From positions 5,874-69,873 of the IMG/VR virus record IMGVR_UViG_3300021399_000007: DNA of 64,000 nt. One strand, given 5' to 3'. Each line of letters begins with the position of its first letter. Position 1 is the stretch's first letter. Shown here one piece after another: positions 22,024 through 64,000 of the stretch. A program made the translations under genes and the position numbers. The DNA is from a virus. The notes below the pieces were generated by a model. It was not told where the DNA came from, searched no databases, and saw nothing but the letters and a program-made list of their open reading frames with translations.

Positions 22024-22095
22024 AAACCGGTCAAAAGTGTATAATTTATATAATCTAATTTTTATATATTATAGAAAAACATAGGAGGAACGATT

Positions 22096-34861: not shown

Positions 34862-34934
34862 TATCTCCTTTTAACTCTTGTTTATACTAATTATAGTATA
34901 ACATAAAATTTTTATTTTGTCAAATTTTTTATTA

Positions 34935-35702: not shown

Positions 35703-35753
35703 TGCTAACTAATAAGTTTCTAAAATCCCTTTTTTTATTTCCTAAGAAAAATT

Positions 35754-36065: not shown

Positions 36066-36140
36066 ATTTATTTATTCCTTTATAATAAAAAATAGGGAGG
36101 ATTATAATTAACCCTCCCTATTCTATTTTTATTTAATTAA

Positions 36141-37145: not shown

Positions 37146-37190
37146 TTGGATTTCCTCCTTATATTTTTATACAAAATCTTATTATTTTTA

Positions 37191-38557: not shown

Positions 38558-38582
38558 ATGTTTTATCTACTCCTTTTATCTC

Positions 38583-39566: not shown

Positions 39567-39593
39567 TTTATTAATCTCCTTTAAAGAATTTTA

Positions 39594-44238: not shown

Positions 44239-44415
44239 AATAAAATTCTCCTTTCATTCCCTCATATTTATATTAAAAATTTAGGCATTTTCTTTAACGG
44301 CTTTTGTCCAAAAAATTTTTTAGCTCATTGATTCTTTATTTTGTAAAGTTTTTGTTGATTTTTCATCATCAGCTTTTTCCGGCCTGCCCGCGCCATCTCC
44401 ACTTTCTGAACCACC

Positions 44416-45888: not shown

Positions 45889-45948
45889 TCGATTAATCAA
45901 CTTTAGATACCTCTCCTTCTTTAATATCCAGCCGCCTCTAATATATAA

Positions 45949-49409: not shown

Positions 49410-49444
49410 AAAAGTCTCCTTTCTTCATTTTTTATTTTTAAAAA

Positions 49445-50562: not shown

Positions 50563-50680
50563 GAAATACTCCTTTCTGCTAATTCATTAATTACATTATA
50601 CCAAAAAAATTTTCAAAAGTCAAACGCGGCAATTGGATATTTTTATTGATTTTTATTAAAAAATATTTTATAATATAATT

Positions 50681-52744: not shown

Positions 52745-53590
52745 GAGGGGAAGTCATTTCCTCGATTTAGAGAGGGAATCGCTTTTTCGATTCAAAAATA
52801 CTTTTGGAGAGAGAAATGTGGAGCCCAAACCCTTTTATTAAATTCAAAAAATTTTTTTCACAAAATATACCCCCCGTAATACTGACTACCTTGACTAGAT
52901 TTCGTGAGGCCTGAATGAGATAGGGCGGAAATAGGTCCCTACAAAAATATTCACAGCCTTGATTAAAACAAACAATTAAATAAAAATAATTACAAAGATG
53001 ATGAAATAAAAATAAAAAAGTTTCATCATCTTTTTGTTTGAAAGAAAAATAAAACACAATAGTTATTATTTTAATAAACGTGCTGCTGGGCGGCAAACGC
53101 TCGTTTGTCGCCGAGGTTCTTCATGGAGTAGGGTTGCAGGTTTTATTCGACCAATTCTGAGAAATCGGCAAAGTTGGTCATTTCCTAGAATTAGGTAAAT
53201 TTACCTAAAAGTGAAAAATTGGTAAAGTTCTTGTTAAAAAATTAACGAAGTTAGAGGCCAGCGACTCTTGTTAGTCGCAATGAACTTTGACCAATTTTTA
53301 TTTTTTGGCTTTAATAAAATGAGTTTACTAATTGGCAAAGGAACAGGATCAGATAGTAAACAGACTGTACTAATTAAACAATGTAACGAATACTTCAATA
53401 CACTAAAGTGTTAGAGAACTAAAGCAACAGCAGACGAAAGACACACAAAGCGACTAAGTAACAACTGTTTACTATATTAATAAGAACTAATGTAGAAAGA
53501 TTGTTAAAAAATTAACGAAGTAATGATACTTACAGACTTAAAAACACTAAAAAAGTAAATTCATTTTACAATATATTTTTTTCAAAAAAG
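52745..53590. repeat. ~850 bp non-coding region with iteron-like direct/inverted repeats and strong hairpins (candidate origin of replication or regulatory hub)
   Basis: Repeats AAATCGGCAAAGTTGGTCA / AAAATTGGTAAAGTTCTTGTT / inverted AACTTTGACCAATTTT at 53155-53300. Hairpin GGCGGCAAACGCTCGTTTGTCGCC at ~53087. Two TTGTTAAAAAATTAACGAAG boxes at 53230 and 53505. Confidence 0.45.
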
Positions 53591-53660
53591 TGTTGACTTT
53601 TTTCCGGACTTTTGATATAATCAAATCATCAAAGAGAGGTACACAAAACAAGAAAGAGAG
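53591..53660 (+). promoter_or_regulatory. Sigma-70-type promoter with a conserved downstream leader (first of about 20 near-identical cassettes in 53591-63780)
   Basis: TTGACT-17-TATAAT followed by AATCATCAAAGAGAGG. Most cassettes carry GTTAAAAAAATAACTTTTAAAA immediately upstream of the -35 element. Confidence 0.55.
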
Positions 53661-53669
53661 GATAAGGAA

Positions 53670-53933
53670 ATGAAAAAAGAGACTTGCGGAGTTGCTATAG
53701 AGAACAATCTGAAAGTAAATGCTTTCCATTACATACCAGAAACAAAGGAAGAAGAAATCAAAGAAACCGAACAAATTATCGCATTCCTTAAGAATCAGCT
53801 GGCTGACTATGAAAAAGAACTCCAAGGAACGGTCAAGGCTCGGAGAAGAAACGAAATCAGCTTCCACATCAATCTGATTCAGCGAAGAATAAAATTCGAA
53901 GAAAAAAATCTTTTTTTCCAAAAAAACGCTTGA
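53670..53933 (+). CDS. hypothetical accessory-cassette protein
   Basis: Sigma-70 promoter GTTGACTTTTTTCCGGACTTTTGATATAAT plus leader AATCATCAAAGAGAGG. Confidence 0.45.
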   Translation: MKKETCGVAIENNLKVNAFHYIPETKEEEIKETEQIIAFLKNQLADYEKELQGTVKARRRNEISFHINLIQRRIKFEEKNLFFQKNA

Positions 53934-53989
53934 CAAATCCGGTTTAATAGATTATACTATAATCAGAAAAGGAAAGGAGAGTAAAAGAA

Positions 53990-54430
53990 ATGACAAGAAC
54001 AATCTTCTTCGACATGGACGGAACAATCGCAGACCTTTACAAAGTAGACGGATGGCTGACCGACCTTATCAACAAAGATGTAAGACCTTACAGAGAAGCA
54101 AAAGTAATGCACAACATGCAAGTACTTGCAAGACTTCTTAACAGACTTCAGAAGAAAGGAAACAAAGTAGCAATCATTAGTTGGTTGGCAAAAAACAGCA
54201 CAGAAGAATATGACACAAGAGTAGCGCAGACTAAAAGAGAGTGGTTGAAAAAACATCTCACAAGCGTTAACTTCGATGAAATCCACATTGTAAAATACGG
54301 AACAAGAAAAGAAACATTCATCCACACAGAAAACGACATTCTCTTTGACGATGAAGAACAAAACAGAAACAACTGGACGGGAAAAGCTTACAACGTGAAT
54401 AACATCATTGAAACACTGAAGAGCCTTTGA
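53990..54430 (+). CDS. HAD-superfamily phosphatase (5'(3')-deoxyribonucleotidase-like), paralogue 1
   Basis: FFDMDGTIAD motif I and DILFDDEE motif. Promoter TTGACAAATCCGGTTTAATAGATTATACTAT. Terminator AGAGCCTTTGAAAAGGCTCT. Confidence 0.6.
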   Translation: MTRTIFFDMDGTIADLYKVDGWLTDLINKDVRPYREAKVMHNMQVLARLLNRLQKKGNKVAIISWLAKNSTEEYDTRVAQTKREWLKKHLTSVNFDEIHIVKYGTRKETFIHTENDILFDDEEQNRNNWTGKAYNVNNIIETLKSL

Positions 54431-54703
54431 AAAGGCTCTTTTTTAATGCGGAATGTTAGTTATGACTAATTCTTGCGGCGAGCGAGATTGTTAAAAAATT
54501 AACAAACGTCTGCGGGCGCTGGGGGCCGAAAAATTTTATCACAGGTGGGTCGCAGTTGTCAAGACAGAAAAATGCACAAAATAGTTAATTATTAGGTTTC
54601 CCATTTTGTGCATTATTTTTTTCAAAATACGTTGACTTTTCCGGTCAAATAGCTTATAATTAAATCATCAAAGAGAGATACACAAAAGAAAGGAGAAAAC
54701 ATC

Positions 54704-54889
54704 ATGACATTATTATTCGCAATCTCAATCGCAATCTTCATTATCAGTTCTTTTATCATTTTCATCTTCTCTTGGAAAATTACTGAAAAAACTCAAGACA
54801 TCTTAAGAATTGTTGCTCTTGTTAGCGCAATAATGATAATCGTATCAATATTTATTTTTCCATTTATTCAAGTATTTTTTTTAAAATAA
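54704..54889 (+). CDS. small two-TM membrane protein
   Basis: Own TTGACT-17-TATAAT promoter and RBS AAGGAG. Confidence 0.4.
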   Translation: MTLLFAISIAIFIISSFIIFIFSWKITEKTQDILRIVALVSAIMIIVSIFIFPFIQVFFLK

Positions 54890-54951
54890 TGATTGACAAT
54901 CCAGTCAATCTCTGTTATAATCAAATTATCAAAAGAAAGGAGATATAAACA

Positions 54952-55083
54952 ATGAAAACTACAAGAGGTTGGTACATCTTCAAGGACGGCACGCAGGCAT
55001 GGTTCAATGGTCTCTCCGCTAGAGAGAAGAGGAACGAAGTCATAAAGCACGGCGAGATTGTCAAATTCATCCCCACACCTTGA
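54952..55083 (+). CDS. small protein (43 aa)
   Basis: Promoter TTGACAATCCAGTCAATCTCTGTTATAAT, RBS AAGGAG, terminator GAGGCTCTACATGAGCCTC. Confidence 0.35.
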   Translation: MKTTRGWYIFKDGTQAWFNGLSAREKRNEVIKHGEIVKFIPTP

Positions 55084-55255
55084 GGCTCTACATGAGCCTC
55101 TTTTTTATGCGCGGGGCGTTGACATTTACATCAACGTATTCAAAAGTTAAAAGTTGGCGATTTTGATTGTTAAAAAAATAACTTTTAAAAAAGTGTTGAC
55201 AAAAGATCAGACATTTGCTATACTTAAATCATCAAAGGAAAGGAGATTAAAACAA

Positions 55256-55422
55256 TGACAAGAGAGGAAATGTTAACACTGGTAATCAAAAAGTTTGGTT
55301 TCGAGCATGAATATACAATCCAGTTCGCAGAAGCGATGGAATGGTTAGGAAGAAAAGAGCTTGAAGCTCTTATGAATGAAGTGTTAGCACTTCCACTTGA
55401 TATTGAAGATGAGGATGAATAA
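55256..55422 (+). CDS. small acidic protein (55 aa)
   Basis: Promoter TTGACAAAAGATCAGACATTTGCTATACT, RBS AAGGAG, terminator GATGAGGATGAATAATCCTCATC. Confidence 0.4.
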
Positions 55423-55585
55423 TCCTCATCTTTTTTTATGCGCGGCGCGCTGGTGGCCGCACCAGCGCGTTTTTCCATTATACCATACCCATCGGGTTTT
55501 GTCAATTGACATTTTGCACAAATTTTAATGCTAAAAATATCCTAAAATTCGTCATTCTTTCAAAAGTTAAAAATCGGTAGATTTC

Positions 55586-55690
55586 TTGTTAAAAATTTAA
55601 CAATCGACTAAAAGTGAAAAATCGGCAAAGTTCTTGTTAAACTTTTAACAATCTACCTACCACTCCTTGTTAAATTCTTAACAAGGGAAA
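55586..55690. promoter_or_regulatory. Array of three tandem palindromic operator-like sites (TTGTTAAA-N4-TTTAACAA) upstream of the 55745 promoter
   Basis: TTCTTGTTAAAAATTTAACAATCG, TTCTTGTTAAACTTTTAACAATCT and CCTTGTTAAATTCTTAACAAGGG, spaced about 45 and 33 bp apart. A perfect palindrome TGTCAATTGACA sits at ~55500. Confidence 0.5.
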
Positions 55691-55803
55691 AATTAAAAAT
55701 CAGCGGTTTTGACTTTGTTAAAAAAATAACTTTTAAAAAGGGGTTGACAACCGGAGTAATAAGGCTTATAATAAGGGTACAAACAAGGAAGGGGGACAAC
55801 CTA

Positions 55804-56265
55804 ATGACTACCAACACCGCACTCCACATCAATCTGATTGACCGCTACAACGCAGTTGCTTATACCCATGAGTATGTATGGGGCTTCACCTACAAAAAAA
55901 ATGTCTATATGACAATCACCGACGCAACTGTGATGCCGTTCGTTACCTGCCTTGACAAGGCAAGCCGTGGTGCTGGATATGCACTTCGCTTCTGCCCCAA
56001 CACTCAGCAGAAAGTGGCCCTGCTTCCATATGCGACCCTCCTTTGCTCTGAAGCTTACTTCAATGAAGTAGTAGCCGACAGCAAGTACAATAAAGGCGAG
56101 ATTTTTGAAAAAATGGTCACCGAACATTTTGGACAGACCTGGGAAAAGGATAATGTTCCCTTTACTGAAGATGGTGATATCACAGTCGATGGTACTGCAT
56201 ATCAAATCAAGTTTCAGAAAGCCACCTTCTGTAACGAAAAGAGCATAGCCAACCTTGAAAAATAA
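55804..56265 (+). CDS. hypothetical accessory protein
   Basis: Promoter GTTGACAACCGGAGTAATAAGGCTTATAAT. RBS AAGGAAGGGGG. The track ORF starts earlier at 55744, inside the promoter. Confidence 0.5.
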   Translation: MTTNTALHINLIDRYNAVAYTHEYVWGFTYKKNVYMTITDATVMPFVTCLDKASRGAGYALRFCPNTQQKVALLPYATLLCSEAYFNEVVADSKYNKGEIFEKMVTEHFGQTWEKDNVPFTEDGDITVDGTAYQIKFQKATFCNEKSIANLEK

Positions 56266-56362
56266 GGTTGGCTATATAGCCCGGGCGCTTGAAAAAAAAT
56301 TTCATATTGACATTTTAAAAAAACTATTGTATAATGTATATAGAAAGTGAGGGAAGAACAAA

Positions 56363-56623
56363 ATGAAAACTTTTATATGTGCTTTTTTCTTGACTATTGC
56401 AGGAATCATCGGAACATGGGAATCTAAATATTCTAGACCCGTAATCTGCACATACTACGACCCCTGCACTAACATTTCCACTTTCACAGACAATAGCGGG
56501 AATGATTGGGAATGGGAAAATGGAAATGATGAGGTTTTTGAAATCGGAAAGTCCTATACTCTTATTATGGATGATAATCATTCTTCTTCTATTTATGACG
56601 ACCTCATTAAAAAAATAAAATAA
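56363..56623 (+). CDS. small secreted/membrane-anchored protein (N-terminal signal-like helix)
   Basis: Promoter TTGACATTTTAAAAAAACTATTGTATAAT. Hydrophobic N-terminus MKTFICAFFLTIAGIIG. Confidence 0.45.
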   Translation: MKTFICAFFLTIAGIIGTWESKYSRPVICTYYDPCTNISTFTDNSGNDWEWENGNDEVFEIGKSYTLIMDDNHSSSIYDDLIKKIK

Positions 56624-56698
56624 AAAATAAAAAACCTATTGACAAATTAAAAAAGAAAGCTTATAATAGATTTATCAAAAGAAAGGAAGAAAAAAATT

Positions 56699-56929
56699 AT
56701 GACGAACGTATCCTATGACATCTACCGCAACAATCAGAAAGTAAAAAATGTAACTACCTATGCCGAAGCGGTTGCTTCTGTTAAAGAGCTGGGCGGGCGC
56801 GGGACTTTCAAGACTGTTTACACTAGCTTCAACCCCGAAGACACCGCAGAAAAGCGTGAATATGCTCATTCTCACGCTCAGAAAGTACATGAAGCGCTGA
56901 AGCGTAAAGCAGGGGTTAAGAAACATTAA
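56699..56929 (+). CDS. hypothetical small protein
   Basis: Promoter TTGACAAATTAAAAAAGAAAGCTTATAAT. RBS AAGGAAG. Confidence 0.45.
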   Translation: MTNVSYDIYRNNQKVKNVTTYAEAVASVKELGGRGTFKTVYTSFNPEDTAEKREYAHSHAQKVHEALKRKAGVKKH

Positions 56930-56976
56930 CCCCTGCACCCCCACAAATAAGAGTATAATAGAAAGGAAGTAAAAAA

Positions 56977-57198
56977 ATGAAAGTATCTATTAACTATTCA
57001 ATTCCTGTTTCAGCGGTTATTGTTTTTGATGAAATTTTTCGTTGTTCTGAACTGACTGACAGCTCTTATCCCCTGCAGAGATACATTGATAAAGCTGAAG
57101 AACTTATGCATATGTACGGTTTTGAATGGGCAGATATCATTGATGATGATGACGGTACTGTGATTGCTCAAATTGAAAGAGAGGACGATGATGAATGA
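56977..57198 (+). CDS. hypothetical small acidic protein
   Basis: RBS GAAAGGAAG. Co-transcribed with 56699. Terminator GACCGAGGTTTACATGACCTCGGTC. Confidence 0.4.
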   Translation: MKVSINYSIPVSAVIVFDEIFRCSELTDSSYPLQRYIDKAEELMHMYGFEWADIIDDDDGTVIAQIEREDDDE

Positions 57199-57394
57199 TA
57201 CTAATGGTATTGTTGATGATGACAGCGGCCTTCCTTATAGTTTTACTGAATGATGATGGCCCAAATAGACCGAGGTTTACATGACCTCGGTCATTTTTCG
57301 CCCGGGCCGCATGTTAAAAAAATAACTAACAAAGACCGCTTGACATTCTTCTATTGTTTTGATATAATCATTATCAGAAAGGGGATGTAACATA

Positions 57395-57886
57395 ATGAAA
57401 TTTTTAAATGAAGATTTACTTATTTCCTTGGTAGATGATTTTCTTAAGCCTTTTGGTCTTGATTCAGATTTTGATTCCGATTTTTCTTATGACCCTGACG
57501 ATGAGAGAGTTTATTTTTCAATCGCAGTTTCTGAAAGAGCAGATAGACTTTTCAAACAATATGTGCTTTCACATTTCCATTTTAAAATTTCCAACATTTT
57601 CATGATTTCTCTTTTGCATGAGGTTGGACATGCTTTCACCCTTGGAAATTTTTCTAAAATGGAAATCAAAACTGACCACTTTGAAAAAGAAACCATCGAA
57701 GAAATGCTTGATGCGGATGACTCCGATGACATTTATTCTTTATATTTTGATTTGAAAATCGAAAAGGTTGCTACTGAATGGGCGGTCAACTACTACAAAG
57801 AAAACACCAAACGCTGCGAAGATTTTTATTCAAAGTTTGTAAATGCCCTTAGAACGGAATATAAAAGGCTGGGAGTGACTGAGTAA
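57395..57886 (+). CDS. Putative HExxH zinc metallopeptidase-like protein
   Basis: LLHEVGHAF motif. Promoter CTTGACATTCTTCTATTGTTTTGATATAAT. Confidence 0.45.
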   Translation: MKFLNEDLLISLVDDFLKPFGLDSDFDSDFSYDPDDERVYFSIAVSERADRLFKQYVLSHFHFKISNIFMISLLHEVGHAFTLGNFSKMEIKTDHFEKETIEEMLDADDSDDIYSLYFDLKIEKVATEWAVNYYKENTKRCEDFYSKFVNALRTEYKRLGVTE

Positions 57887-57998
57887 GTCACCCCTAACCG
57901 CCCGGGCAGCGAGATTGTTAAAAAAATAACTTTTAAAATGGTATTGACATTTGTTCCTTTGTGTGGTATAGTATAACCATGAAAGAGAGGTAAACAAA

Positions 57999-58340
57999 AT
58001 GGCTCGTAAAATTTTCTTCGCAAGAGATTGGGACAAAGTTGGTAGAAATTATTATGAAATTTATACCACTGTTTGTATGGGATATACTTTTACTGTTGGA
58101 AAAGGAATTGAAAGAGACCCGAACTTTTCTATCTTTTATGTAACTAATGATGGACAGCATGACCATTATGAAATCCTTAATGTTTACATTACTGCAGGCG
58201 ATACCATCGAAGATACACAGAAAGGCGTTCTTACTACTCTCAAAAGAGAAATGAAAAGAGTTATTCAAAGAGGGTTGACAACTCGTGTAAAAAGTGGTAT
58301 GCTTACTATAGAACAGATAGAAAGGTGGGTAACAAAATGA
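57999..58340 (+). CDS. hypothetical accessory protein
   Basis: Promoter TTGACATTTGTTCCTTTGTGTGGTATAGTAT. RBS AGAGAGG. Confidence 0.45.
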   Translation: MARKIFFARDWDKVGRNYYEIYTTVCMGYTFTVGKGIERDPNFSIFYVTNDGQHDHYEILNVYITAGDTIEDTQKGVLTTLKREMKRVIQRGLTTRVKSGMLTIEQIERWVTK

Positions 58341-58475
58341 CAAATTTAAAAGATTTTATGTTATTTCAAATAGGCTCCTATCAAGTTATGGGATTATTCA
58401 GTAAAAAAGCTGATACGAAACTCAAACGTATTTTACATTATTTGCCTGTATTGATTATTAAGAAAGGATAACAAA

Positions 58476-58721
58476 ATGTATAAACTCTATTCAAGAATAA
58501 GTGACCATGAAACAATCCTTGAACTGTGGGGCGCATCAACCAAACATCCTGATAGCGTGTTTTTCTTTTCAGAATTTGAACCAAGCCCATGGTTTGACAG
58601 AGCCGACCAAATTGTTCCTTGGCTTCTGGAGTGCGCAAGCAAGATGAACTGGCCTATCCATTCTTACGAACTGGCAAAATGGGCGTGCATGATTTACGAG
58701 TCATGGCGCGGTTGGAATTAA
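58476..58721 (+). CDS. hypothetical accessory protein
   Basis: RBS AAGGA. Same operon as 57999. Confidence 0.45.
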   Translation: MYKLYSRISDHETILELWGASTKHPDSVFFFSEFEPSPWFDRADQIVPWLLECASKMNWPIHSYELAKWACMIYESWRGWN

Positions 58722-58737
58722 TGAAAGGAGATACATC

Positions 58738-58869
58738 ATGCAGGAACTTTTCGATCTTTTCTATCTCTATGATTACATGGTTATGCACACTGTTGATGAA
58801 GAACATGAGGAATACATACACCTGCGTCGTTACGTTGCAAAGCTGATTGAGGGGTTGGGGGCTGAGTAA
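58738..58869 (+). CDS. small protein (43 aa)
   Basis: RBS AAAGGAG. Ends inside a terminator hairpin GGGGCTGAGTAAGTCCCC. Confidence 0.3.
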   Translation: MQELFDLFYLYDYMVMHTVDEEHEEYIHLRRYVAKLIEGLGAE

Positions 58870-59170
58870 GTCCCCACTAACTTTGCCCGGGCGGCCCGTC
58901 GATTTATACAAAAGGATCCATATTTTCAATTTGATTTTTGTGCAACATTACGTCTTTACAAATCAAGAAACCTTTGCTATAATCTAGTTACAAGGTGAGG
59001 GAAACAAAAAGCCCTCAAAACTCAAAAGGGTTAGACAACAAGGCGCGCTGAGTCTAGCTTTTGGATTGAAAGGAGACAAGCAAAATGAGAATGCCGAGAG
59101 ATTGGATTTAATCCCTTTGGCTGAGTAGGAATGCCACTGTATGATTTGTAAAAAATAAAAATAAAAAACC

Positions 59171-59400
59171 TCTTGACAAATAGGGCGACTTGTGGTATAA
59201 TCTAATCACAGGTTAAGAAAGGAGATAGATAAGCCCATGATGAAAATTAAGAAATGAGCGCTTAGACTTGGGCATGGAGCGCTATGACATAAATTAAAAG
59301 GACTTGTCCATGGTAGCGGTGGATTGGCCACCCACCGAACTACCGAAACTTAAAAAAATTTTTTTAAAAAAAGCTTGACAACTGAATAAGGAACTGATAT
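59171..59400 (+). repeat. Leader module copy A (promoter, mini-ORF MMKIKK, two conserved hairpins, second promoter) upstream of wHTH paralogue 59444
   Basis: Homologous to 62491..62760. Conserved segments are AGCGCTATGACATAAA and GGTGGATTGGCCACCCACCG. Hairpin 1 shows compensatory changes (GCGCT/AGCGC versus GCGTT/AACGC). Confidence 0.5.
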
Positions 59401-59443
59401 AATAAAATCATCAAAAAGATAAACAAATCATTTAAAAAAGGAG

Positions 59444-59824
59444 ATGTATACTATGACAAAACTTACCTACGCTATGGCTATCGACTTCGCAACCGCAATC
59501 ATCACCAATGGAACTGCTGATTTCAACGGCTTCTCCGCTGATGAGTACCTTGAGAAGCTGGAGTCCCTCAAGGCTTCCCTTGCAAGACGCAACGGAAGTG
59601 AGAGAAAACCCACCAAGACCCAGCAGGCAAATGAGGGTCTGAAAGAAGATATGTGGGCTTACGTTTCTGAGAATGGTGCAAAGCGTGCCAATGAGGTCGC
59701 TGAACACTTCGCTATCAGCGGTCAGAAGGCTTCGGCTCTGCTGAACGCACTGGTCAAGGAAGGTCGCCTTGACAAGTTCACCGAGAAGCGTGTGACCTAC
59801 TTCAGGGTTGCTGAGGGGATGTAA
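59444..59824 (+). CDS. KPTKTQ-motif winged-helix-like small protein, paralogue A
   Basis: Shares the KPTKTQ..N(D/E)G(F/L)K motif and a C-terminal wHTH-like segment with 62777 and 63774. Promoter CTTGACAACTGAATAAGGAACTGATATAAT. Confidence 0.5.
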   Translation: MYTMTKLTYAMAIDFATAIITNGTADFNGFSADEYLEKLESLKASLARRNGSERKPTKTQQANEGLKEDMWAYVSENGAKRANEVAEHFAISGQKASALLNALVKEGRLDKFTEKRVTYFRVAEGM

Positions 59825-59995
59825 TCCCCTCACCGCTACCCCCAAGCGTGCCGAATCGTGATTGAAATAAATCCGTAGATTGAGGACGCTTGGGGGCGCG
59901 CCCGGGTACTCGTTAAAAAAATAACTTTCAAAAAGGGATTGACATCTCAATAGAAAAGGATTATAATGTAATCACAAAAAGAAAGGAGACAAAAA

Positions 59996-60199
59996 ATGAT
60001 TGCAGTTTTAAGATGGACAGATGGTTTTGGCCATGACACTTATGTAAAGGCAATTTATCCTACTCTTGAACAAGCAAAACAGTATTTTTCAGAGGGGGAC
60101 CGTTGGGTAGAATTTAATTATGGACTTGTTGATTTTGATTGGTATGAAGCCAATGAGTTCAGAGAAATAAAACATAGAAAAAAGAAGAAAAAGACTTGA
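59996..60199 (+). CDS. hypothetical small protein
   Basis: Promoter ATTGACATCTCAATAGAAAAGGATTATAAT. RBS AAAGGAG. Confidence 0.4.
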   Translation: MIAVLRWTDGFGHDTYVKAIYPTLEQAKQYFSEGDRWVEFNYGLVDFDWYEANEFREIKHRKKKKKT

Positions 60200-60253
60200 C
60201 AAATCTTTTAAAGTATGTCATAATCAAATCATCAAAAAAAAGAGGTAAACACC

Positions 60254-60553
60254 ATGAAGATTAATTACAAAGAAGTCACCATTACCACCACTTGCCCCTT
60301 CTGCGGACATATTAACGAAGTAGCGGTCAACAAATCCGATTACTGGGAGTGGCAGAACGGCGCACTTGTTCAGGATGCGTTCCCCTATCTCACAGCTGAT
60401 GAGCGTGAGACACTTGTGAGTGGCATCTGCCCCGCTTGTTGGGACAGAATGTTCAGCTTTCCCAATGATGAGGAAGATGATGAACTTTTTGACGACTGCG
60501 ATTATGAAATGGGTTTTGATCCCTATCTTGGGTGTTTTTCAGATGACTGCTGA
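60254..60553 (+). CDS. small Zn-ribbon protein
   Basis: CPFCGH...CPACW. Promoter CTTGACAAATCTTTTAAAGTATGTCATAAT. Confidence 0.45.
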   Translation: MKINYKEVTITTTCPFCGHINEVAVNKSDYWEWQNGALVQDAFPYLTADERETLVSGICPACWDRMFSFPNDEEDDELFDDCDYEMGFDPYLGCFSDDC

Positions 60554-60874
60554 GGTCATCTGACCCACCCGGGCGCCCGTTAACAATTCTGTAACAAAAT
60601 TAATAAATTGTTAAATTGACAAAATAAAAAAGATTTATTATAATTGTTACAGAAAGAGAGGTAAAAAGCTATGAAGAACACTTGGAAAATGGAAACATCT
60701 AAGGATTTTACCGCATGGGATTTAAATTGCCGAAATGTAGTCCCCCACAAAAAGCATCACAATGAACTTGAAAAAAAATTAAAAAGAAAAAATCGTAGAA
60801 AAGTAAAAATGACGCTTGACATTCTTTTTAAGTGATGCTATAATACAATTACAAAAAGAAAGGGGAATAAAAAA

Positions 60875-61312
60875 ATGACGATTTGGTTTGACATGGATGG
60901 AACAATTGCTAATCTCTACGGAGTTCAAAACTGGCTTGACTATCTGATGGCAAGCGACCCCACCCCTTACGCAATCGCTAAACCGCTTCTGAGACTGAAC
61001 GCACTGGCAAGAGTTCTAAATAATCTTCAGCGCAAGGGTTACAAAGTCGGAGTCATCAGCTGGCTTGCTAAAAACAGCACCGCCGACTATGACGAAGCGG
61101 TCACCAAAGCAAAGATTGATTGGTTGACTAAACATCTTGCAAGCGTTACTTTCGATGAAATCAACATCGTAAGATACGGAACTCCAAAACATCTGTTCGC
61201 TACCTGCGAAGCCGACATTCTTTTCGATGATGAGGAAAAGAACCGCAACGAATGGACAGGAAAAGCGTTCGATGTGAATAACATTCTTGAAGTGCTGAAG
61301 GGACTGGATTAA
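60875..61312 (+). CDS. HAD-superfamily phosphatase, paralogue 2 (GC-richer codon usage than paralogue 1)
   Basis: WFDMDGTIAN and DILFDDEE motifs. Collinear with 53990..54430 at the protein level. Terminator GGACTGGATTAATCCAGTCC. Confidence 0.6.
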   Translation: MTIWFDMDGTIANLYGVQNWLDYLMASDPTPYAIAKPLLRLNALARVLNNLQRKGYKVGVISWLAKNSTADYDEAVTKAKIDWLTKHLASVTFDEINIVRYGTPKHLFATCEADILFDDEEKNRNEWTGKAFDVNNILEVLKGLD

Positions 61313-61419
61313 TCCAGTCCCAAATTTTTTGGCCCGGGCGCCCATTTTTTTCATTAAACCCCTTGACAAATCAAAGAATATCAATTATAATTGATTTATC
61401 AAAAGAAAGGAGCAAAAAA

Positions 61420-61791
61420 ATGAAAACTGCAAAATTATCTCTTTTAATATTATTTTTCCTCTTTGCTATTGTTATTATTTCATCCTCTGCGACTGCCGCC
61501 AAAAACGATTTAAAAATCATTAAAACTCTTTGCAAAAATAGACCATTTAAAGTGGTTTCCCACAAAGACTACAAAAAAATAACTCACAGGAAAAACAAAC
61601 CTTACATAATAGTTGTAAAAATCATTTCCCGCTCAAAAGGAAACTATGGTTTTACAAAAGAAGGATATTACATTTCCTATAACAAAAGAGTCAAAGTAGG
61701 AAAAAAGGTTACTAGTTACCTTATTTATAATCCAAAAAACAATAGTCATGATGATGTGCTATGGGTTGTAGATAATGGGAAATATAAATAA
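61420..61791 (+). CDS. small secreted protein (signal peptide)
   Basis: MKTAKLSLLILFFLFAIVIISSSATAA. RBS AAAGGAG. The track start at 61363 lies within the promoter CTTGACAAATCAAAGAATATCAATTATAAT. Confidence 0.45.
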   Translation: MKTAKLSLLILFFLFAIVIISSSATAAKNDLKIIKTLCKNRPFKVVSHKDYKKITHRKNKPYIIVVKIISRSKGNYGFTKEGYYISYNKRVKVGKKVTSYLIYNPKNNSHDDVLWVVDNGKYK

Positions 61792-61846
61792 AAAACATGT
61801 TGACTTTTTTCTTAATCAATGATATAATCTAATCAAGAAAGGAGAG

Positions 61847-62188
61847 ATGAACATGACAAACAAAGATAAACTGATTGAAAAAATCATGAGAGAATGTGAA
61901 CAGGAAGGCGAGCCTGTTACAAGAGAAGAAGCTGAAGAAATGGCGGAGATGGAAATCAAAGCCAATGGCATCAAGCGGTATGAACAGTCCGATAAACCGC
62001 GGAAGGCCACCAAAAAAGAGCGGAAGGTGGATACCACAAAGAAACGCCTGCTGATGGATTGCAAGGTGCTTCTTGAAGGTCTTGGCGCTGAGGTTCTCAA
62101 TGTGAAAACTGAGACCGAAGTCACTTTCAACTTTGAGGGCGAAGAGTATAGCCTGAAACTGGTCAAGCATCGCCCCAAGAAGGAATAA
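61847..62188 (+). CDS. hypothetical basic/acidic small protein
   Basis: Promoter GTTGACTTTTTTTCTTAATCAATGATATAAT. RBS AAGGAGAG. Terminator GGCAGAGGATTTTTCCTCTGTC. Confidence 0.45.
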   Translation: MNMTNKDKLIEKIMRECEQEGEPVTREEAEEMAEMEIKANGIKRYEQSDKPRKATKKERKVDTTKKRLLMDCKVLLEGLGAEVLNVKTETEVTFNFEGEEYSLKLVKHRPKKE

Positions 62189-62490
62189 AAACAAGGCAGA
62201 GGATTTTTCCTCTGTCTTTTCCAGCGGGGCGCGAGCCTTCGGTTCGCGCCGAAATTTCCATTGTACCACACCCCGCACTTTTTGTCAAGCAAAATCTGCA
62301 AAAAAACTACACAAAATTATATCCCAAAATTAGTGCAACATTCCGATGTTGACTTTCTAAAAAACTTATATTATAATATGTTTACAAGGTAAGGGAAGGG
62401 CAACACAATCGAGTAGGATGGTCGGCAGAGCCTAGCGCCTTCTGATTATTTGAATAGACAGATAGCCACTTCAAAAAAAATAAAAAAACT

Positions 62491-62760
62491 TGTTGACAAA
62501 TAAAAAATCTTATGTTATAATAAGTACATAAGATAAAGAAAGGATTGATACAGCTGATGAGACTTAGGATGTAAGCGTTGGGGCGCAAACGCTATGACAT
62601 AAAAGAGGCGCAGGGGTAGATACGCGGACGCGGACAGAGTGAGAAAGGCGGTGGAATTGGCCACCCACCGCTCCCCGAAAAGTTTTTAAAAAAAGCTTGA
62701 CAACTAAATGAGGAACTGTTATAATAAGCACATAAGAAAACAAAACACCACTTAATCAAG
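62491..62760 (+). repeat. Leader module copy B (promoter, mini-ORF MRLRM, two hairpins, second promoter) upstream of paralogue 62777
   Basis: See copy A at 59171..59400. P-b TTGACAAATAAAAAATCTTATGTTATAAT. P-c CTTGACAACTAAATGAGGAACTGTTATAAT. Confidence 0.5.
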
Positions 62761-62776
62761 AAAGGAAGTATCTACC

Positions 62777-63136
62777 ATGACGAAGAGAGAAATGTTCACC
62801 AAAATCCGCACTGCTGTTGCTAACGATGCTGAGATGGTCGCCTTCATTGACCACGAAATCGAGTTGCTGAACCGCAAGTCCGCAACCCCGAAGAAACCCA
62901 CCAAGACGCAGGTGGAAAACGATGGTTTCAAGGCTGAAATCCTTGAAACGTTGGCTCAGGTCGATGCGCCTGTGACCATCAAGGAACTGTGCGGTGCCTG
63001 TGAAGCTCTCGCAGGTCTTTCCAATCAGCGTGTGACTCACATGCTGACTGACCTCCGCAAGGATGGCAAGGTTGCTCGGTCCTATGTTAAGAAGGTTGCC
63101 TACTTCGCTCTTGGTTCTGAGGACGAGGTAGAGTAA
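62777..63136 (+). CDS. KPTKTQ-motif winged-helix-like small protein, paralogue B
   Basis: MTKREMFTKIRTAVANDAEMVAFIDHEIELL...KPTKTQVENDGFKAEI is near-identical in its N-terminal half to 63774. Confidence 0.5.
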   Translation: MTKREMFTKIRTAVANDAEMVAFIDHEIELLNRKSATPKKPTKTQVENDGFKAEILETLAQVDAPVTIKELCGACEALAGLSNQRVTHMLTDLRKDGKVARSYVKKVAYFALGSEDEVE

Positions 63137-63773
63137 GAAAAAGGGTTTGCGGTTATCCCTTAAAACCGCATTTTATGGGGGATTTATAGTGAAGCCTGAG
63201 GTGACAAGTAGTTGCGTAATAGCCCTTGTGTAATTCCTGGGAAGATGTGGTGCAAGTCCCATTCCCCCAACTCTACTGACAATATTCGTTCCTCCTTTCT
63301 TTGAAAAGACACCATCTTTTTAGATGGTGTCTTTTTCATTTGGCGCCACGCGACCGGTCGGCCGCGGGGCGAAACTTCCATTATATCATACTCTGGGCTT
63401 TTTGTCAAGTGAAAATCTGCACAAACATCTCGCCGCAAAATTCCCAAAATTAGTGCAATATTCCGACATTGACTTTTTCAAAAAAATTTATTATAATATA
63501 TTTACAAGGTAAGGGAAGTCAACCGCTAAAAAAACTTAAAAAGTTAAAAAAAGTTCTTGACAAAACAAAAGCCTTGTGCTATAATAATCTTGTTGGGTGG
63601 TAGAAGCAACATAAAATAAAAGATACCCGTGGAGTTGATGGTACGATAGTCTCCGAAAAAAAACCATCAAAAAATTAAAAAATCTATTGACAAATCAAAA
63701 ATCTTATGTTAAAATAAGTACATAAGATAAAACAAAAACAAATCAATCAATCAAAAGAAAGAGGTGTTTATTA

Positions 63774-64000
63774 TGACAAAGAAAGAAATGTTCTCCAAAA
63801 TCCGTACTGCTGTTGCTGATAACGCTGAAATGGTTGCTTTCATCGACCATGAGATTGAACTGCTGGAGAAGAAGTCCAGTTCCCCGAAAAAGCCGACCAA
63901 GACTCAGCTTGAGAATGACGGCTTCAAGGCGGAGATTGTCGCCTACCTCACGGATGCTGATGCTCCGAAGAACATCAAGGAACTTCAGGCCGAGGTCGCT
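63774..64000 (+). CDS. KPTKTQ-motif protein, paralogue C (3' end outside the window)
   Basis: MTKKEMFSKIRTAVADNAEMVAFIDHEIELLEKKSSSPKKPTKTQLENDGFKAEI. Promoter ATTGACAAATCAAAAATCTTATGTTAAAAT. Confidence 0.45.

What the first reader, a model, noticed from the sequence alone, without database searches (positions are those of the whole stretch)
53591..64000. Higher-GC accessory array of about 20 single-gene cassettes with near-identical architecture: [CCCGGGCG] - [GTTAAAAAAATAACTTTTAAAA] - [TTGACA-17-TATAAT] - [AATCATCAAAAGAAAGGAG] - small ORF - [hairpin terminator]
From 53.6 kb onward, essentially every small ORF has its own strong sigma-70 promoter, a conserved AT-rich element just upstream of the -35, a conserved leader and RBS, and its own terminator. 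A GC-only motif CCCGGGC(G) recurs seven times in 5 kb, always between a terminator and the next promoter (56281, 57301, 57903, 58888, 59900, 60568, 61333). Composition and codon usage differ from the rest of the phage. The region contains duplicated genes (two HAD phosphatases, three KPTKTQ paralogues). The organisation resembles moron or promoter-stem-loop cassette shuffling in phage hyperplastic regions. It is a good candidate for an exchangeable host-takeover or anti-defence gene island.
Basis: seen in the sequence. Interest (0 to 1): 0.8.

Follow-up and report, generated by a model that had tools for sequence, protein, structure and literature searches.

The report
Phage early-gene promoter cassette array
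The end of this window is the early-gene region of a large uncultured gut or rumen phage, where each small gene or small RNA has its own very strong bacterial-type promoter; related phages gain and lose these units by recombination between the repeated control sequences, which is a known kind of phage region, here with several undescribed control motifs and RNAs.

Summary
25 plus-strand promoters within one mismatch of TTGACA-17-TATAAT, all with a 17-nt spacer, lie in 53.6-63.7 kb. All seven CCCGGGC sites of the window lie in 56.3-61.3 kb. GC3 is 0.41 here against 0.16 in the replication genes.

The same architecture recurs in over 100 related phage contigs. Genomes 92-97% identical differ by whole-cassette indels whose junctions sit in the repeated promoter, upstream-element or leader sequences. 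So it behaves like the T4 PeSL hyperplastic regions and resembles the SPO1 host-takeover module, in a TAG-recoded phage lineage probably infecting Firmicutes.

- Six promoters drive no protein gene.
- A conserved module follows the winged-helix "KPTKTQ" genes: pseudoknot-terminator, tRNA-like RNA (tRNA-Lys or tRNA-Asn in relatives), CCUCCUUUC box.
- Three convergent promoters each make a GC-hairpin RNA.
- The commonest palindrome of the clade, TTGTTAA-N4-TTAACAA, equals the clostridial Rex operator consensus.
- Most hairpins before GCCCGGGC lack a U-tract.

Protein functions stay unknown except for two NT5C-type deoxyribonucleotidases. "Early" and "host takeover" are inferences.

The parts
53593..64000 (+). 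Array of autonomous transcription units. It has 25 sigma-A/sigma-70 consensus promoters, each with a 17-nt spacer. It continues to about 67.3 kb in identical contigs L052 and L053.
53670..53933 (+). g01, an 87-aa protein of unknown function with its own promoter at 53593
53990..54430 (+). g02, an NT5C/HAD 5'(3')-deoxyribonucleotidase (paralogue 1)
   Evidence: Pfam PF06941 at 3.4e-7; phrog_2643 at 8e-13
54704..55422 (+). Three single-gene units (61, 43 and 55 aa) with promoters at 54632, 54893 and 55196. The 43- and 55-aa genes end in U-tract terminators at 55082-55100 and 55405-55433.
55804..56265 (+). g06, a 153-aa protein of unknown function that belongs to the backbone shared with relatives
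56363..57198 (+). g07 (86 aa), g08 (76 aa) and g09 (73 aa), all unknown. g08 and g09 probably share promoter 56639.
57395..57886 (+). g10, a 163-aa protein with an HEVGH motif and only a weak match to a putative metallopeptidase family
   Evidence: PF14247 at 0.002, below the curated cut-off
57999..58869 (+). Four-gene operon g11-g14 under promoter 57944. The g11 cassette is 91% identical in nucleotides in L028.
59453..59824 (+). K1, the first KPTKTQ paralogue: N-terminal helical hairpin plus C-terminal winged helix
59996..60835 (+). Three single-gene units (67, 99 and 54 aa). The 67-aa cassette (59898-60203) is shared at 85% nucleotide identity with L037, running exactly from the GC box to the next -35.
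60875..61312 (+). g19, an NT5C/HAD deoxyribonucleotidase (paralogue 2)
   Evidence: PF06941 at 7e-7
61420..61791 (+). g20, a 123-aa protein with an N-terminal hydrophobic stretch that looks like a signal peptide; function unknown
61853..62188 (+). g21, a 111-aa backbone protein with 1026 unnamed homologues and no structural match
62777..63136 (+). K2, the second KPTKTQ winged-helix protein. The AlphaFold2 model has pLDDT 88 and its nearest folds are ArsR/SmtB-type and Z-alpha-type winged helices.
63774..64000 (+). K3, the third KPTKTQ paralogue, cut off by the end of the window (113 aa in L053)
56279..56286 (.). GC box GCCCGGGC, 3-4 nt after a hairpin and 21 nt before the -35
57300..57307 (.). 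GC box GCCCGGGC, after the U-tract terminator at 57268-57292
57900..57907 (.). GC box GCCCGGGC, after a hairpin without a U-tract
58885..58892 (.). GC box GCCCGGGC, after the g14 hairpin
59900..59906 (.). GC box GCCCGGG; left edge of the cassette shared with L037
60568..60574 (.). GC box CCCGGGC
61332..61339 (.). GC box GCCCGGGC, after the U-tract terminator at 61300-61321
53231..53248 (.). Rex-operator-like palindrome TTGTTAAAAAATTAACGA (1 mismatch), preceded by the direct repeat AAAAGTGAAAAATTGGTAAAGTTC
53501..53518 (.). Rex-operator-like palindrome (1 mismatch)
54488..54505 (.). Perfect TTGTTAA-N4-TTAACAA box
55586..55684 (.). Cluster of three perfect TTGTTAA-N4-TTAACAA boxes (55586, 55634, 55667) with flanking direct repeats
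55167..55190 (+). UP-like A/T element TTGTTAAAAAAATAACTTTTAAAA, which is a left Rex half-site plus a degenerate right half, ending 11 nt before the -35. Further copies lie at 55715, 57311, 57915 and 59910.
58955..59150 (+). Promoter unit without a protein gene (N1). It holds a conserved micro-ORF, MRMPRDWI* at 59085-59111, that is MPRDW(I/V)* in relatives.
59173..59352 (+). Promoter unit N2a: SD, micro-ORF MMKIKK* (59237-59257), hairpin GCGC..GCGC, the box UAUGACAUAAA (59283-59293), then a 3' hairpin
62349..62478 (+). Promoter unit N3: a conserved hairpin RNA with loop AGCCUAGCGC; 20 distinct homologous segments including the window's own
62493..62690 (+). Promoter unit N2b: micro-ORF MRLRM* (62557-62574), a hairpin, the box UAUGACAUAAA (62593-62603), then a structured 3' part
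63469..63672 (+). Two promoters in tandem (63469, 63557) with no ORF. They are probably remnants of cassettes that lost their gene.
   Evidence: the L106/L031 deletion shows the process
63141..63170 (+). H-type pseudoknot / terminator-loop pseudoknot AAGGGUUUGCGGUUAUCCCUUAAAACCGCA, 4 nt after the K2 stop codon
63176..63270 (+). tRNA-like RNA: 7-bp acceptor stem, T arm with a bulged U and loop UGCAAGU, a long arm with a 16-nt loop, and no D arm. Relatives carry tRNA-Lys or tRNA-Asn in this slot.
63285..63337 (+). Conserved pyrimidine box UUCGUUCCUCCUUUCUUU (anti-SD-like; it reads as an SD on the - strand), followed by a terminator hairpin
55400..55505 (-). Convergent perfect promoter (55505-55477), then GGAAAAACG, a GC-rich hairpin (55471-55444), then the hairpin of the g05 terminator
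62190..62288 (-). Convergent promoter (62288-62260, 11 of 12), then GGAAAUUUCG, a GC hairpin, then the terminator shared with g21
63300..63408 (-). Convergent perfect promoter (63408-63380), then GGAAGUUUCG, a GC hairpin, a second hairpin, then an SD-like AAAGGAGG

Best explanation
WHAT IT IS. This is the early, host-RNA-polymerase-dependent accessory region of a large, low-GC, TAG-recoded phage that probably infects Firmicutes. It is built as a hyperplastic array of autonomous expression cassettes.

THE CASSETTE. Each unit has, in order:
- a hairpin;
- often a GC box, GCCCGGGC;
- an A/T-rich upstream element that is also a half or full TTGTTAA-N4-TTAACAA palindrome;
- a near-perfect TTGACA-17-TATAAT promoter;
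- a shared leader and strong SD;
- a small gene or a small RNA.

HOW IT WORKS (INFERRED). On infection the host sigma-A holoenzyme fires all the promoters at once. Because the genes are TAG-free and GC3-rich, the unmodified host translation system can read them before the phage's own recoding and tRNA supply are in place.

HOW IT EVOLVES (SHOWN BY COMPARISON). The repeated regulatory DNA provides 30-60-bp homology patches. Recombination between these patches inserts, deletes and swaps whole cassettes between and within related phages. The same process leaves behind promoters with no gene.

THE CONSERVED BACKBONE. It comprises NT5C deoxyribonucleotidases, three or four winged-helix 'KPTKTQ' proteins, the g21 family, and the module K gene, pseudoknot-terminator, tRNA or tRNA-like RNA, CCUCCU box. 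I infer that the backbone carries the core takeover and regulatory functions and that the variable small genes are host-specific accessories.

THE MOTIFS (INFERRED, UNTESTED). The GC box and the Rex-like palindrome are most likely protein-binding sites that regulate or insulate these very strong promoters.
For: PROMOTER DENSITY. Density and uniform 17-nt spacing are shown.

TAG STATUS. The 22 array genes contain no in-frame TAG and none ends in TAG. Structural genes carry 6-9 in-frame TAGs each.

CODON USAGE. GC3 is 0.41 in the array against 0.16 in the replication genes.

WIDESPREAD ARCHITECTURE. The same layout appears in 21 viral contigs found through the 22-mer alone. It also appears in loci found through the K and g06 proteins.

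MOSAICISM.

WHOLE-CASSETTE INDELS. Genomes 92-97% identical differ by cassettes whose junctions fall in repeated sequences:
- TTGACA to TTGACA: L018/L004, L044/L038, L036/L034;
- GC box plus UP element plus -35: L026/L028;
- leader/RBS: L034/L036;
- an ORF deletion that leaves a promoter fused to a terminator: L106/L031.

HOMOLOGY BREAKPOINTS. 36% lie within 40 nt of a promoter, against 15.5% of random positions.

ENZYME MATCH. The NT5C enzymes match a PHROG in the host-takeover category.

PRECEDENTS. PeSL cassettes in T4-type phages (PMC2839356, PMC4122927). The SPO1 host-takeover module has small early genes with strong promoters and ribosome binding sites (PMC6873191). Recoded stop codons occur mainly in late genes (PMC10607447).
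Against: - No expression data exist, so 'early' is inferred only from promoter type and TAG status.
- 16 of the 22 proteins have no family match above thresholds, and two structure models gave nothing specific. 'Host takeover' is therefore unproven.
- The host is unknown. MAG bins that hold relatives carry contradictory taxon labels.
- Clustering of breakpoints in intergenic DNA could partly reflect faster divergence there rather than recombination.
- Most hairpins next to GC boxes lack U-tracts, so true transcriptional autonomy of each unit is uncertain.
- The nearest described phage, phAss-1, shows no such array in its first 20 kb.
Confidence: 0.75

Rival explanations
1. The TTGTTAA-N4-TTAACAA palindromes are genuine binding sites for the host redox sensor Rex. 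On this view the phage either gates early transcription on the host NADH/NAD+ state or uses operator clusters as a sponge that titrates Rex and derepresses host fermentation genes. This would add to the best explanation rather than replace it.
For: - The box equals the published Clostridiaceae Rex consensus TTGTTAANNNNTTAACAA (PMC8457756).
- The window has 4 perfect and 2 one-mismatch boxes, against 0.35 expected.
- It is the commonest perfect 7+7 palindrome at any gap from 2 to 8 in 1.46 Mb of related loci, with 53 distinct copies.
- Both known variants, TTGTTAA and TTGTGAA, occur.
- Distances to the -35 are preferred: 12-14, 20-22 and 30-31 nt.
- Clusters occur at 55586-55684 and, in L013, as five boxes on a 56-bp pitch with one slot skipped.
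- A full-text search found no paper on Rex sites in phage early promoters.
Against: - The boxes lie upstream of the -35, not over the core promoter where Rex normally represses.
- In the window none of the perfect boxes adjoins a promoter.
- The phage's own winged-helix K proteins, or a CRP/FNR-type protein (TGTGA-N6-TCACA is contained in the box), could be the binder.
- The host, and whether it has Rex, are unknown.
- The match is one of many possible matches to known operator consensus sequences.
Confidence: 0.3
2. Hairpin plus GCCCGGGC is a site-specific recombination signal at the 3' end of each cassette, like an integron attC site. A dedicated recombinase would move the cassettes.
For: - A variable hairpin directly abuts a conserved core: 133 of 141 sites have a hairpin, mostly 0-4 nt away, and only 9 have a U-tract.
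- GCCCGGGC(G) is the commonest GC-only 8-mer.
- One indel (L026/L028) and one shared cassette (window 59898-60203 against L037) begin at the box.
- Four window cassettes between two boxes (59901-61333) have no counterpart in L011.
Against: - Observed junctions show 20-58 nt of overlap inside promoters, UP elements or leaders, which is typical of homologous recombination.
- Homology breakpoints are not enriched at CCCGGG: 2.1% against 1.6% of random positions.
- Many related arrays have dense promoters but no CCCGGG at all: L003, L004, L008, L009 and L018.
- No recombinase was seen in the array.
Confidence: 0.1
3. The GC box and palindromes are operators for phage-encoded regulators, for example the conserved winged-helix K proteins. 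These would shut off or insulate the early promoters at the switch to middle genes. Alternatively, the GC box acts as a downstream GC clamp that strengthens pausing or termination before the next promoter.
For: - Three or four K paralogues with winged-helix domains are the most conserved proteins of the array.
- The motifs sit beside nearly every promoter in some relatives.
- 74% of CCCGGG sites lie 10-60 nt before a -35.
- The box follows U-tract terminators in the window at 57300 and 61332.
- From general knowledge: virulent phages shut off their early promoters, and sequences distal to a terminator affect termination efficiency in the T3 and T7 early terminators.
Against: - No binding data exist.
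- The fold matches of K are generic (E above 1e-3).
- The distance from GC box to promoter is variable.
- Other GC-only sequences are also frequent in these spacers.
- A GC-rich RNA-DNA hybrid right after a hairpin should oppose intrinsic termination rather than help it.
Confidence: 0.3
4. The region is foreign DNA, a set of morons acquired from a higher-GC source, rather than a native early module.
For: GC and GC3 are higher than in the rest of the window. Each gene has its own promoter and terminator, which is the moron definition. Single cassettes are exchanged horizontally.
Against: - The backbone genes and the whole architecture are conserved across more than 50 related phage contigs.
- GC3 varies gene by gene from 0.24 to 0.61.
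- The promoters, leaders and SDs are uniform.
- The TAG-free state fits the phage's own recoding programme.
- Relatives were found only in phage-like contigs.
Confidence: 0.07
5. Parts of the region, namely the box clusters with direct repeats and the convergent promoter plus GC-hairpin units, are replication origins or partition sites. The short GC-rich transcript would prime or open the DNA, as at T4 or T7 origins.
For: - Boxes occur as iteron-like repeats: spacings of 48 and 33 bp at 55586-55684, and a 56-bp pitch in L013.
- Direct repeats flank the boxes (family D17).
- There are 82 distinct promoter plus GGAAWUUUCG plus GC-hairpin units. 96% fold at -12 kcal/mol or better, and they have 53 different stem sequences.
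- These units lie in AT-rich non-coding hubs.
Against: - No initiator gene was identified next to them.
- GC skew switches at about 34 kb and about 50 kb, not at these sites.
- The same units can be read simply as antisense or insulating transcription units.
- 17 of the 82 are followed by an SD.
Confidence: 0.1

Closest known systems
PeSL (promoter-early stem-loop) regulatory cassettes of T4-type phage hyperplastic regions (Arbiol et al. 2010, PMC2839356; Comeau et al. 2014, PMC4122927)
   Same: - It is a composite of a stem-loop and a strong sigma-70-type promoter.
- The composite is repeated between small genes of unknown function.
- Close relatives differ by insertions, deletions and replacements whose junctions lie in the repeats.
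   Different: - The phage lineage is unrelated: TAG-recoded, probably infecting Firmicutes, with a portal only 39% identical to that of phAss-1.
- The cassette carries extra conserved parts: the GC box GCCCGGGC, a Rex-like palindrome or half-site, and a shared leader.
- Most stem-loops next to the GC box lack a U-tract.
- Some cassettes carry RNAs.
- Mini-circles were not tested.
[quoted passage not shown] 1998, as summarised in PMC6873191)
   Same: - It is a cluster of about 10-14 kb holding some two dozen small early genes.
- The genes have unusually strong host-type promoters and ribosome binding sites.
- They are arranged as many short operons in a large virulent phage of Firmicutes.
   Different: - No sequence homology to any SPO1 gene was found.
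- Location in a terminal repeat is not shown: many relatives' contigs end in the array, but in the 104-kb contig it is internal.
- No toxicity or shut-off data exist.
T5 pre-early (first-step-transfer) region with the dmp 5'-deoxyribonucleotidase (from general knowledge, not checked in a paper here)
   Same: An early region that encodes a deoxyribonucleotidase. Here there are two NT5C/HAD copies matching PHROG 2643, annotated '5'-3' deoxyribonucleotidase' in the category 'moron, auxiliary metabolic gene and host takeover'.
   Different: No two-step injection signals or A1/A2 homologues were identified, and homology to T5 Dmp itself was not tested.
Rex (redox-sensing repressor) operators of Clostridia, TTGTTAANNNNTTAACAA (Ravcheev 2012 as cited in PMC8457756)
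   Same: The 18-bp consensus is identical, and both the T and the G variant of the half-site occur.
   Different: The boxes are in a phage, mostly upstream of the -35 or in promoter-free clusters. Binding by Rex is untested.
Phage-encoded tRNA-Lys that rescues infection from tRNA-cleaving defences (T5 tRNA-Lys against PARIS, PMC11464382), and tRNA-like domains of tmRNA and Y-RNA-like RNAs (from general knowledge)
   Same: - The K-gene slot holds tRNA-Lys(UUU), tRNA-Lys(CUU) or tRNA-Asn(GUU) in 48 of 112 relatives.
- The window's element keeps an acceptor stem and a T arm.
   Different: - The window's RNA has no D arm and has a 16-nt loop in place of an anticodon loop.
- Neither ARAGORN nor Rfam calls it.
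- The tRNAs may simply supply AAN codons for an AT-rich genome.
- No link to any defence system was shown.

Membership tests
PeSL-type mobile regulatory cassettes | A composite motif of a stem-loop followed by a strong sigma-70-like early promoter, repeated many times in a region of small non-essential genes | tested here: met
   25 promoters within one mismatch of consensus in 10 kb. Hairpins lie upstream of the promoters, and family-wide 133 of 141 CCCGGG sites have one.
PeSL-type mobile regulatory cassettes | Insertions, deletions and replacements between closely related phages have their junctions in the cassettes | tested here: met
   One search shows indels of 154-521 nt between genomes 92-97% identical, with junctions in the -35, UP, GC-box or leader sequences.
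PeSL-type mobile regulatory cassettes | The stem-loops are effective transcription terminators | tested here: inconclusive
   Several window hairpins have U-tracts (55082, 55405, 57268, 61300). Only 9 of the 133 family-wide hairpins next to CCCGGG do. No functional assay was possible.
PeSL-type mobile regulatory cassettes | Occurs in T4-type myoviruses, and recombination produces encapsidated mini-circles | tested here: not met
   The lineage is different. Mini-circles cannot be tested with these tools. The region therefore works like PeSLs but is not a member of that sequence family.
SPO1-type host-takeover module | A cluster of small early genes with strong host-type promoters and strong ribosome binding sites | tested here: met
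   AAGAAAGGA occurs 15 times against 1.2 expected, and 12 of the copies lie in the array.
SPO1-type host-takeover module | Located in the terminal redundancy of the genome | tested here: inconclusive
   Roughly half of the 21 related loci found with the 22-mer touch or nearly touch a contig end. In the 104,555-bp contig of this phage the array is about 9 kb from the end, and other long contigs hold it internally.
SPO1-type host-takeover module | Gene products shut off host macromolecular synthesis or cell division | not testable with these tools
   Only the NT5C enzymes and winged-helix domains could be assigned.
Rex regulon operator | An 18-bp palindrome matching TTGTTAANNNNTTAACAA or TTGTGAANNNNTTCACAA | tested here: met
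Rex regulon operator | Bound by Rex, released by NADH, and positioned so as to repress a promoter | not testable with these tools
   The position, upstream of the -35 or free-standing, is atypical for repression.
Canonical tRNA gene | A cloverleaf with a D arm, a 7-nt anticodon loop, a T arm and an acceptor stem | tested here: not met
   ARAGORN finds none in the window. The covariation-supported fold has an acceptor stem and a T arm but no D arm, and a 16-nt apical loop. Relatives carry true tRNA-Lys or tRNA-Asn in the same slot.
Integron gene cassettes | Promoterless ORFs, each ending in an attC hairpin, recombined by an adjacent integrase | tested here: not met
   Every cassette has its own promoter. 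No integrase lies in the array. The junctions are homology patches.
Morons | A gene with its own promoter and terminator inserted between genes of a conserved phage operon and absent from close relatives | tested here: inconclusive
   The variable cassettes fit. However, the region as a whole is a conserved module, not an insertion into a late operon.

The most novel reading that the evidence does not exclude
The repeated control DNA may be more than promoters. On this reading a clade of TAG-recoded gut and rumen phages wires its whole early programme to host global regulators and to its own RNAs.
- Rex-operator arrays, and CGAAC-N4-GTTCG LexA-box-like hairpins in sister lineages, would make early transcription sense host redox or SOS state, or would titrate those repressors.
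- Hairpin plus GCCCGGGC would be a new factor-dependent boundary element.
- The conserved K-gene, pseudoknot, tRNA-like, CCUCCUUUC module would yield a tRNA mimic and an anti-Shine-Dalgarno small RNA that act on translation or on tRNA-targeting defences.
Probability: 0.15. Interest if true: 0.85.

Novelty: new variant of a known kind. Interest (0 to 1): 0.6.

Why it matters
If the reading is right, promoter-terminator cassette shuffling is a general way in which large virulent phages renew their early-gene repertoire. It would not be a peculiarity of T4-type phages, because here it appears in an unrelated, uncultured, stop-codon-recoded lineage from anaerobic gut ecosystems.

The array offers a ready-made catalogue for screening: about 30 small, strongly expressed, TAG-free genes, plus thousands of homologues. 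These can be tested for host-takeover or anti-defence activity.

It also provides three concrete, testable regulatory leads that I did not find described:
- host Rex-operator look-alikes beside phage early promoters;
- a GC-only 8-bp palindrome tied to hairpins;
- a conserved module of pseudoknot-terminator, tRNA-like RNA and CCUCCU box.

Finally, it is a clean example of early genes kept readable in the standard code while later genes are TAG-recoded.

Tried and rejected
SEARCHES THAT FOUND NOTHING USEFUL
- Megablast of the region against 50,697 phage records: no match.
- Rfam at gathering threshold over the whole window, and at E up to 5 over 52.5-64 kb: nothing credible.
- ARAGORN on the window: no tRNA or tmRNA.
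- Pfam, PHROGs and NCBIfam on the array proteins gave only NT5C/HAD, weak winged-helix hits, a weak metallopeptidase hit and one PHROG of unknown function.
- My guess that the 237-aa protein just beyond the window is a DEDD exonuclease got no Pfam support and is dropped.

STRUCTURE MODELS
- K2 (AlphaFold2 plus Foldseek against PDB): only generic winged-helix matches, with E above 1e-3.
- A PDB sequence-profile search built from an alignment of the K proteins also gave nothing.
- g21: no meaningful match.

RNA FOLDING
- No consensus fold was found for the 3' part of the N2 RNAs; only the first hairpin is shared.
- MAFFT could not hold the pseudoknot variants in register. I used a pattern search with shuffled controls instead.

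IDEAS TESTED AND NOT SUPPORTED
- The GC box as the preferred recombination breakpoint: 2.1% against 1.6% of random positions.
- phAss-1 as a model for the array: its first 20 kb has no such promoter density.
- Host assignment from MAG labels: contradictory, including Treponema, Prevotella and Clostridia.
- The minus-strand ORF opposite the tRNA-like element: rejected as a gene because its peptide is not conserved between relatives (read).
- The tRNA-like RNA as a TAG suppressor: rejected because its apical loop contains no CUA (read).

Full report
OBSERVATION.

- Promoters. The window holds 18 exact TTGACA-N16-18-TATAAT sites, against 0.11 expected, and 16 of them lie in 54.9-63.6 kb. With one mismatch allowed there are 25 plus-strand promoters between 53593 and 63687. 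Every one has a 17-nt spacer and 15 have the extended -10 TG.
- CCCGGGC. It occurs seven times, only between 56280 and 61339; 0.59 were expected.
- Other motifs. GTTAAAAAAATAAC and the leader AATCATCAAAAGAAAGGAG are likewise confined to the array.
- Composition. GC rises from about 0.30 to 0.34-0.42. GC3 is 0.41 against 0.16 in the replication genes.
- Paralogues. Two NT5C/HAD genes and three KPTKTQ paralogues are confirmed.

Four corrections apply. One four-gene operon exists (57999-58869). Six promoters have no protein gene behind them. Most hairpins next to CCCGGG in the clade lack a U-tract. The array continues beyond the window: contigs L052, L053 and L054 are 100% identical to it and carry the array on to about 67.3 kb, with 11 CCCGGG sites and 30 such promoters up to 66997, plus two weaker TTGAAA-type sites near 67.6 kb.

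CONTEXT. The window belongs to a large low-GC phage. It encodes topoisomerase II, NAD ligase, DnaB, a 1318-aa DNA polymerase, NrdD and a portal.

The nearest described phage by portal is phAss-1, at 38.6% identity. phAss-1 is a member of the 'code 15' clade (PMC10607447).

Reading TAG as sense adds 13 frames of at least 200 codons. The structural genes at 34-50.6 kb carry 6-9 in-frame TAGs each. The 22 array genes have no in-frame TAG and none ends in TAG. Recoded stop codons are reported mainly in late genes (PMC10607447). The array is therefore the part of the genome that the unmodified host machinery can read. This fits early expression better than foreign origin.

FAMILY-WIDE ARCHITECTURE. 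The exact 22-mer GTTAAAAAAATAACTTTTAAAA alone retrieved 21 loci from IMG/VR contigs, most of the long ones 100-200 kb. Most have the same dense one-strand promoters, and about two thirds have CCCGGG boxes.

In them the order is hairpin, GCCCGGGC, a TTGTNAA..TTNACAA palindrome, an A/T-rich stretch, then TTGACW.

Protein-guided searches added about 30 loci of up to about 20 kb. A tblastn map shows a shared backbone: g05, g06, NT5C, K, g21, K, K, a g21-like gene, NT5C. Variable small cassettes sit in different places between these genes.

CASSETTE EXCHANGE. Two window cassettes are much more similar to a relative than their neighbours are.
- 57960-58346 is 91% identical in L028 and runs from the -10 to the stop codon.
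- 59898-60203 is 85% identical in L037 and runs from the GC box to the next -35.

Among genomes 92-97% identical I found whole-cassette indels of 154-521 nt whose two junctions lie in repeated regulatory DNA:
- -35 to -35: L018/L004, L044/L038, L036/L034;
- GC box plus UP element plus -35: L026/L028;
- leader/RBS: L034/L036;
- an ORF deletion that leaves a promoter fused to a terminator: L106/L031. This explains the gene-less promoters at 63469 and 63557.

Homology breakpoints lie within 40 nt of a promoter in 36% of cases, against 15.5% for random positions. They are not enriched at CCCGGG (2.1% against 1.6%). This is the behaviour described for PeSL cassettes in T4-type phages (PMC2839356, PMC4122927).

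THE GC BOX. There are 141 distinct CCCGGG sites in relatives.
- 87% are flanked by G and C, giving the 8-bp palindrome.
- 133 have a hairpin within the 45 nt upstream, mostly ending 0-4 nt before the box.
- Only 9 of those hairpins are followed by a U-tract.
- 74% of the sites lie 10-60 nt before a -35.

GCCCGGGC(G) is the commonest of 135 GC-only 8-mers, but other GC-rich strings are frequent too. Several related arrays have no CCCGGG at all. Its function is unknown. I rank the options in this order: a protein-binding or boundary element first, a GC clamp after terminators second, and a site-specific recombination core last.

THE PALINDROME. TTGTTAANNNNTTAACAA is the published Rex operator consensus of Clostridiaceae (PMC8457756).

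The window has four perfect and two one-mismatch boxes, all at 53.2-55.7 kb; 0.35 were expected. Three of them form a cluster with flanking direct repeats.

In relatives the box sits 3-8 nt after CCCGGG and 12-14, 20-22 or 30-31 nt before the -35. It is the most frequent perfect 7+7 palindrome at any spacing in 1.46 Mb.

It may therefore act as an UP element, as a weak operator, or as both. Binding by Rex is a lead and has not been tested. The positions are atypical for Rex repression, and a phage protein could be the binder.

NON-CODING UNITS.

(a) The module after K genes. Four nt after the K2 stop codon lies AAGGGUUUGCGGUUAUCCCUUAAAACCGCA (63141-63170).
- The motif occurs in 119 metagenome loci. 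In 90 of 105 loci with enough upstream sequence, tblastn finds a K-family gene just upstream, and where I read the sequence its stop codon lies a few to about ten nt before the motif.
- It has the pattern of an H-type pseudoknot. Variants keep both stems with other sequences, for example GGCGACU/AGUCGCU and GCGGCU/AGCCGC, and then carry a U-tract. So it is a terminator whose loop pairs with upstream bases.
- What follows it, among 112 distinct loci: a canonical tRNA in 54 (Lys-UUU 17, Asn-GUU 15, Lys-CUU 14, plus two loci that carry two of these); an uncalled element with a T-arm motif in 33; something else, including ORFs, in 25.
- The window's element (63176-63270) has a 7-bp acceptor stem, a T arm, a long two-helix arm with a 16-nt loop, and no D arm. 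Across five distinct homologues, 97.4% of cells pair. 9 of 23 pairs show changes on both sides. No shuffle of 500 reaches the observed score.
- A CCUCCU-type box follows 78 of the 87 tRNA or tRNA-like elements. It reads as an anti-SD on the plus strand and as an SD on the minus strand. I could not decide which strand is selected.

(b) N2 units. Promoters 59173 and 62493 drive an SD, a 5-9-codon micro-ORF rich in R/K-x-R/K whose stop abuts a GC hairpin, the box WAUGACAUAAA, and a variable structured tail. There are 12 distinct copies.

(c) N1 and N3. N1 (58955) carries a conserved micro-ORF, MPRDW(I/V)*. N3 (62349) is a conserved hairpin RNA with 20 distinct homologous segments, counting the window's own copy.

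(d) Convergent promoters. Three minus-strand consensus promoters (55505, 62288, 63408) each drive GGAAWUUUCG plus a GC-rich hairpin. There are 82 distinct copies in relatives; 96% fold stably, and they have 53 different stem sequences.

PROTEINS. Apart from the NT5C enzymes (PHROG 2643, '5'-3' deoxyribonucleotidase') nothing specific emerged. The K proteins model confidently as a helical hairpin plus a winged helix, but they match only generic ArsR-, SmtB- and Z-alpha-type folds. g21 has no structural match.

MECHANISM AND RIVALS. The best-supported account is an early, host-polymerase-driven accessory region that is built from, and renewed by, recombining regulatory cassettes (confidence 0.75).
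- Shown: the motif statistics, conservation, mosaicism, indel junctions, TAG-free status and RNA covariation.
- Inferred: early timing, a takeover function, and what the GC box, the palindrome and the RNAs do.

The rivals, or additions, are Rex control or titration, phage-encoded operators, an integron-like system, foreign origin, and origin or partition functions. Each is given separately with its own test.

VERDICT. This is a real and rich feature of a known kind: a PeSL-like, SPO1-like early hyperplastic region. It lies in a new lineage and carries several undescribed components. It is a new variant of a known kind, with interest 0.6.

Noticed in passing
window 8187-10256, 18389-20257, 22054-22860 (+); 34299-39590 and 44320-50583 (-): The phage appears to read TAG as a sense codon. 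Long frames appear only when TAG is not a stop, with 6-9 in-frame TAGs in several structural genes. No tRNA, and so no suppressor tRNA, lies in the window.
   Followed up: partly
L005, L001, L012, L132, L076, L100 and others (for example L005 at about 2590-2620): In sister lineages the hairpin before the GC box is CGAAC-N4-GTTCG. From memory this is the LexA (Cheo) box consensus of Gram-positive bacteria. There are 137 distinct copies in 40 loci and none in the window.
   Followed up: partly
L013, reverse-strand coordinates 4657-4950: Five Rex-like boxes lie on a regular 56-bp pitch (one slot skipped), each preceded by a small hairpin. This looks like an iteron or centromere array.
   Followed up: no
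window 53205-53230, 55560-55585, 55608-55633: A direct repeat, AAAAGTGAAAAATCGGCAAAGTTC (83-88% identical copies), sits immediately 5' of three of the Rex-like boxes.
   Followed up: no
L053 14580-14790 and 15340-15760 (window-equivalent 67.36-67.57 and 68.1-68.5 kb): Just past the end of the array there is a GC-rich non-coding stretch. It is followed by about 400 nt made almost only of C, T and A on the plus strand. This could be a genome end, an origin or a low-complexity gene.
   Followed up: no
window 59237-59257, 62557-62574, 59085-59111, and 12 related N2 copies: The micro-ORFs behind gene-less promoters are conserved in type: MMNRCRI, MRLRM, MMKIKK, MPRDWI, MRDPP. Most contain R/K-x-R/K or RDPP. 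From memory these resemble known ribosome-stalling leader peptides.
   Followed up: no
metagenome loci (two segments): ARAGORN calls a tRNA with anticodon UUA (a UAA suppressor) in the slot after the K-gene pseudoknot in two loci.
   Followed up: no
window 12868-12896, 24381-24409: These are the only two perfect consensus promoters outside the array. They lie in the replication-gene block and may mark further early or middle units.
   Followed up: no
window 54533-54562 (-): A fourth, weaker convergent promoter (TTGACA-18-TAAAAT). By my estimate its transcript would cross the perfect Rex-like box at 54488-54505 about 20-40 nt after its start, a position where a bound protein could block it.
   Followed up: no
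L053 12875-13030 (window-equivalent 65651-65806): One array gene beyond the window ends at TAG under the standard code (47 aa) but was called as 51 aa in the source. It is a possible case of TAG read-through inside the array.
   Followed up: no
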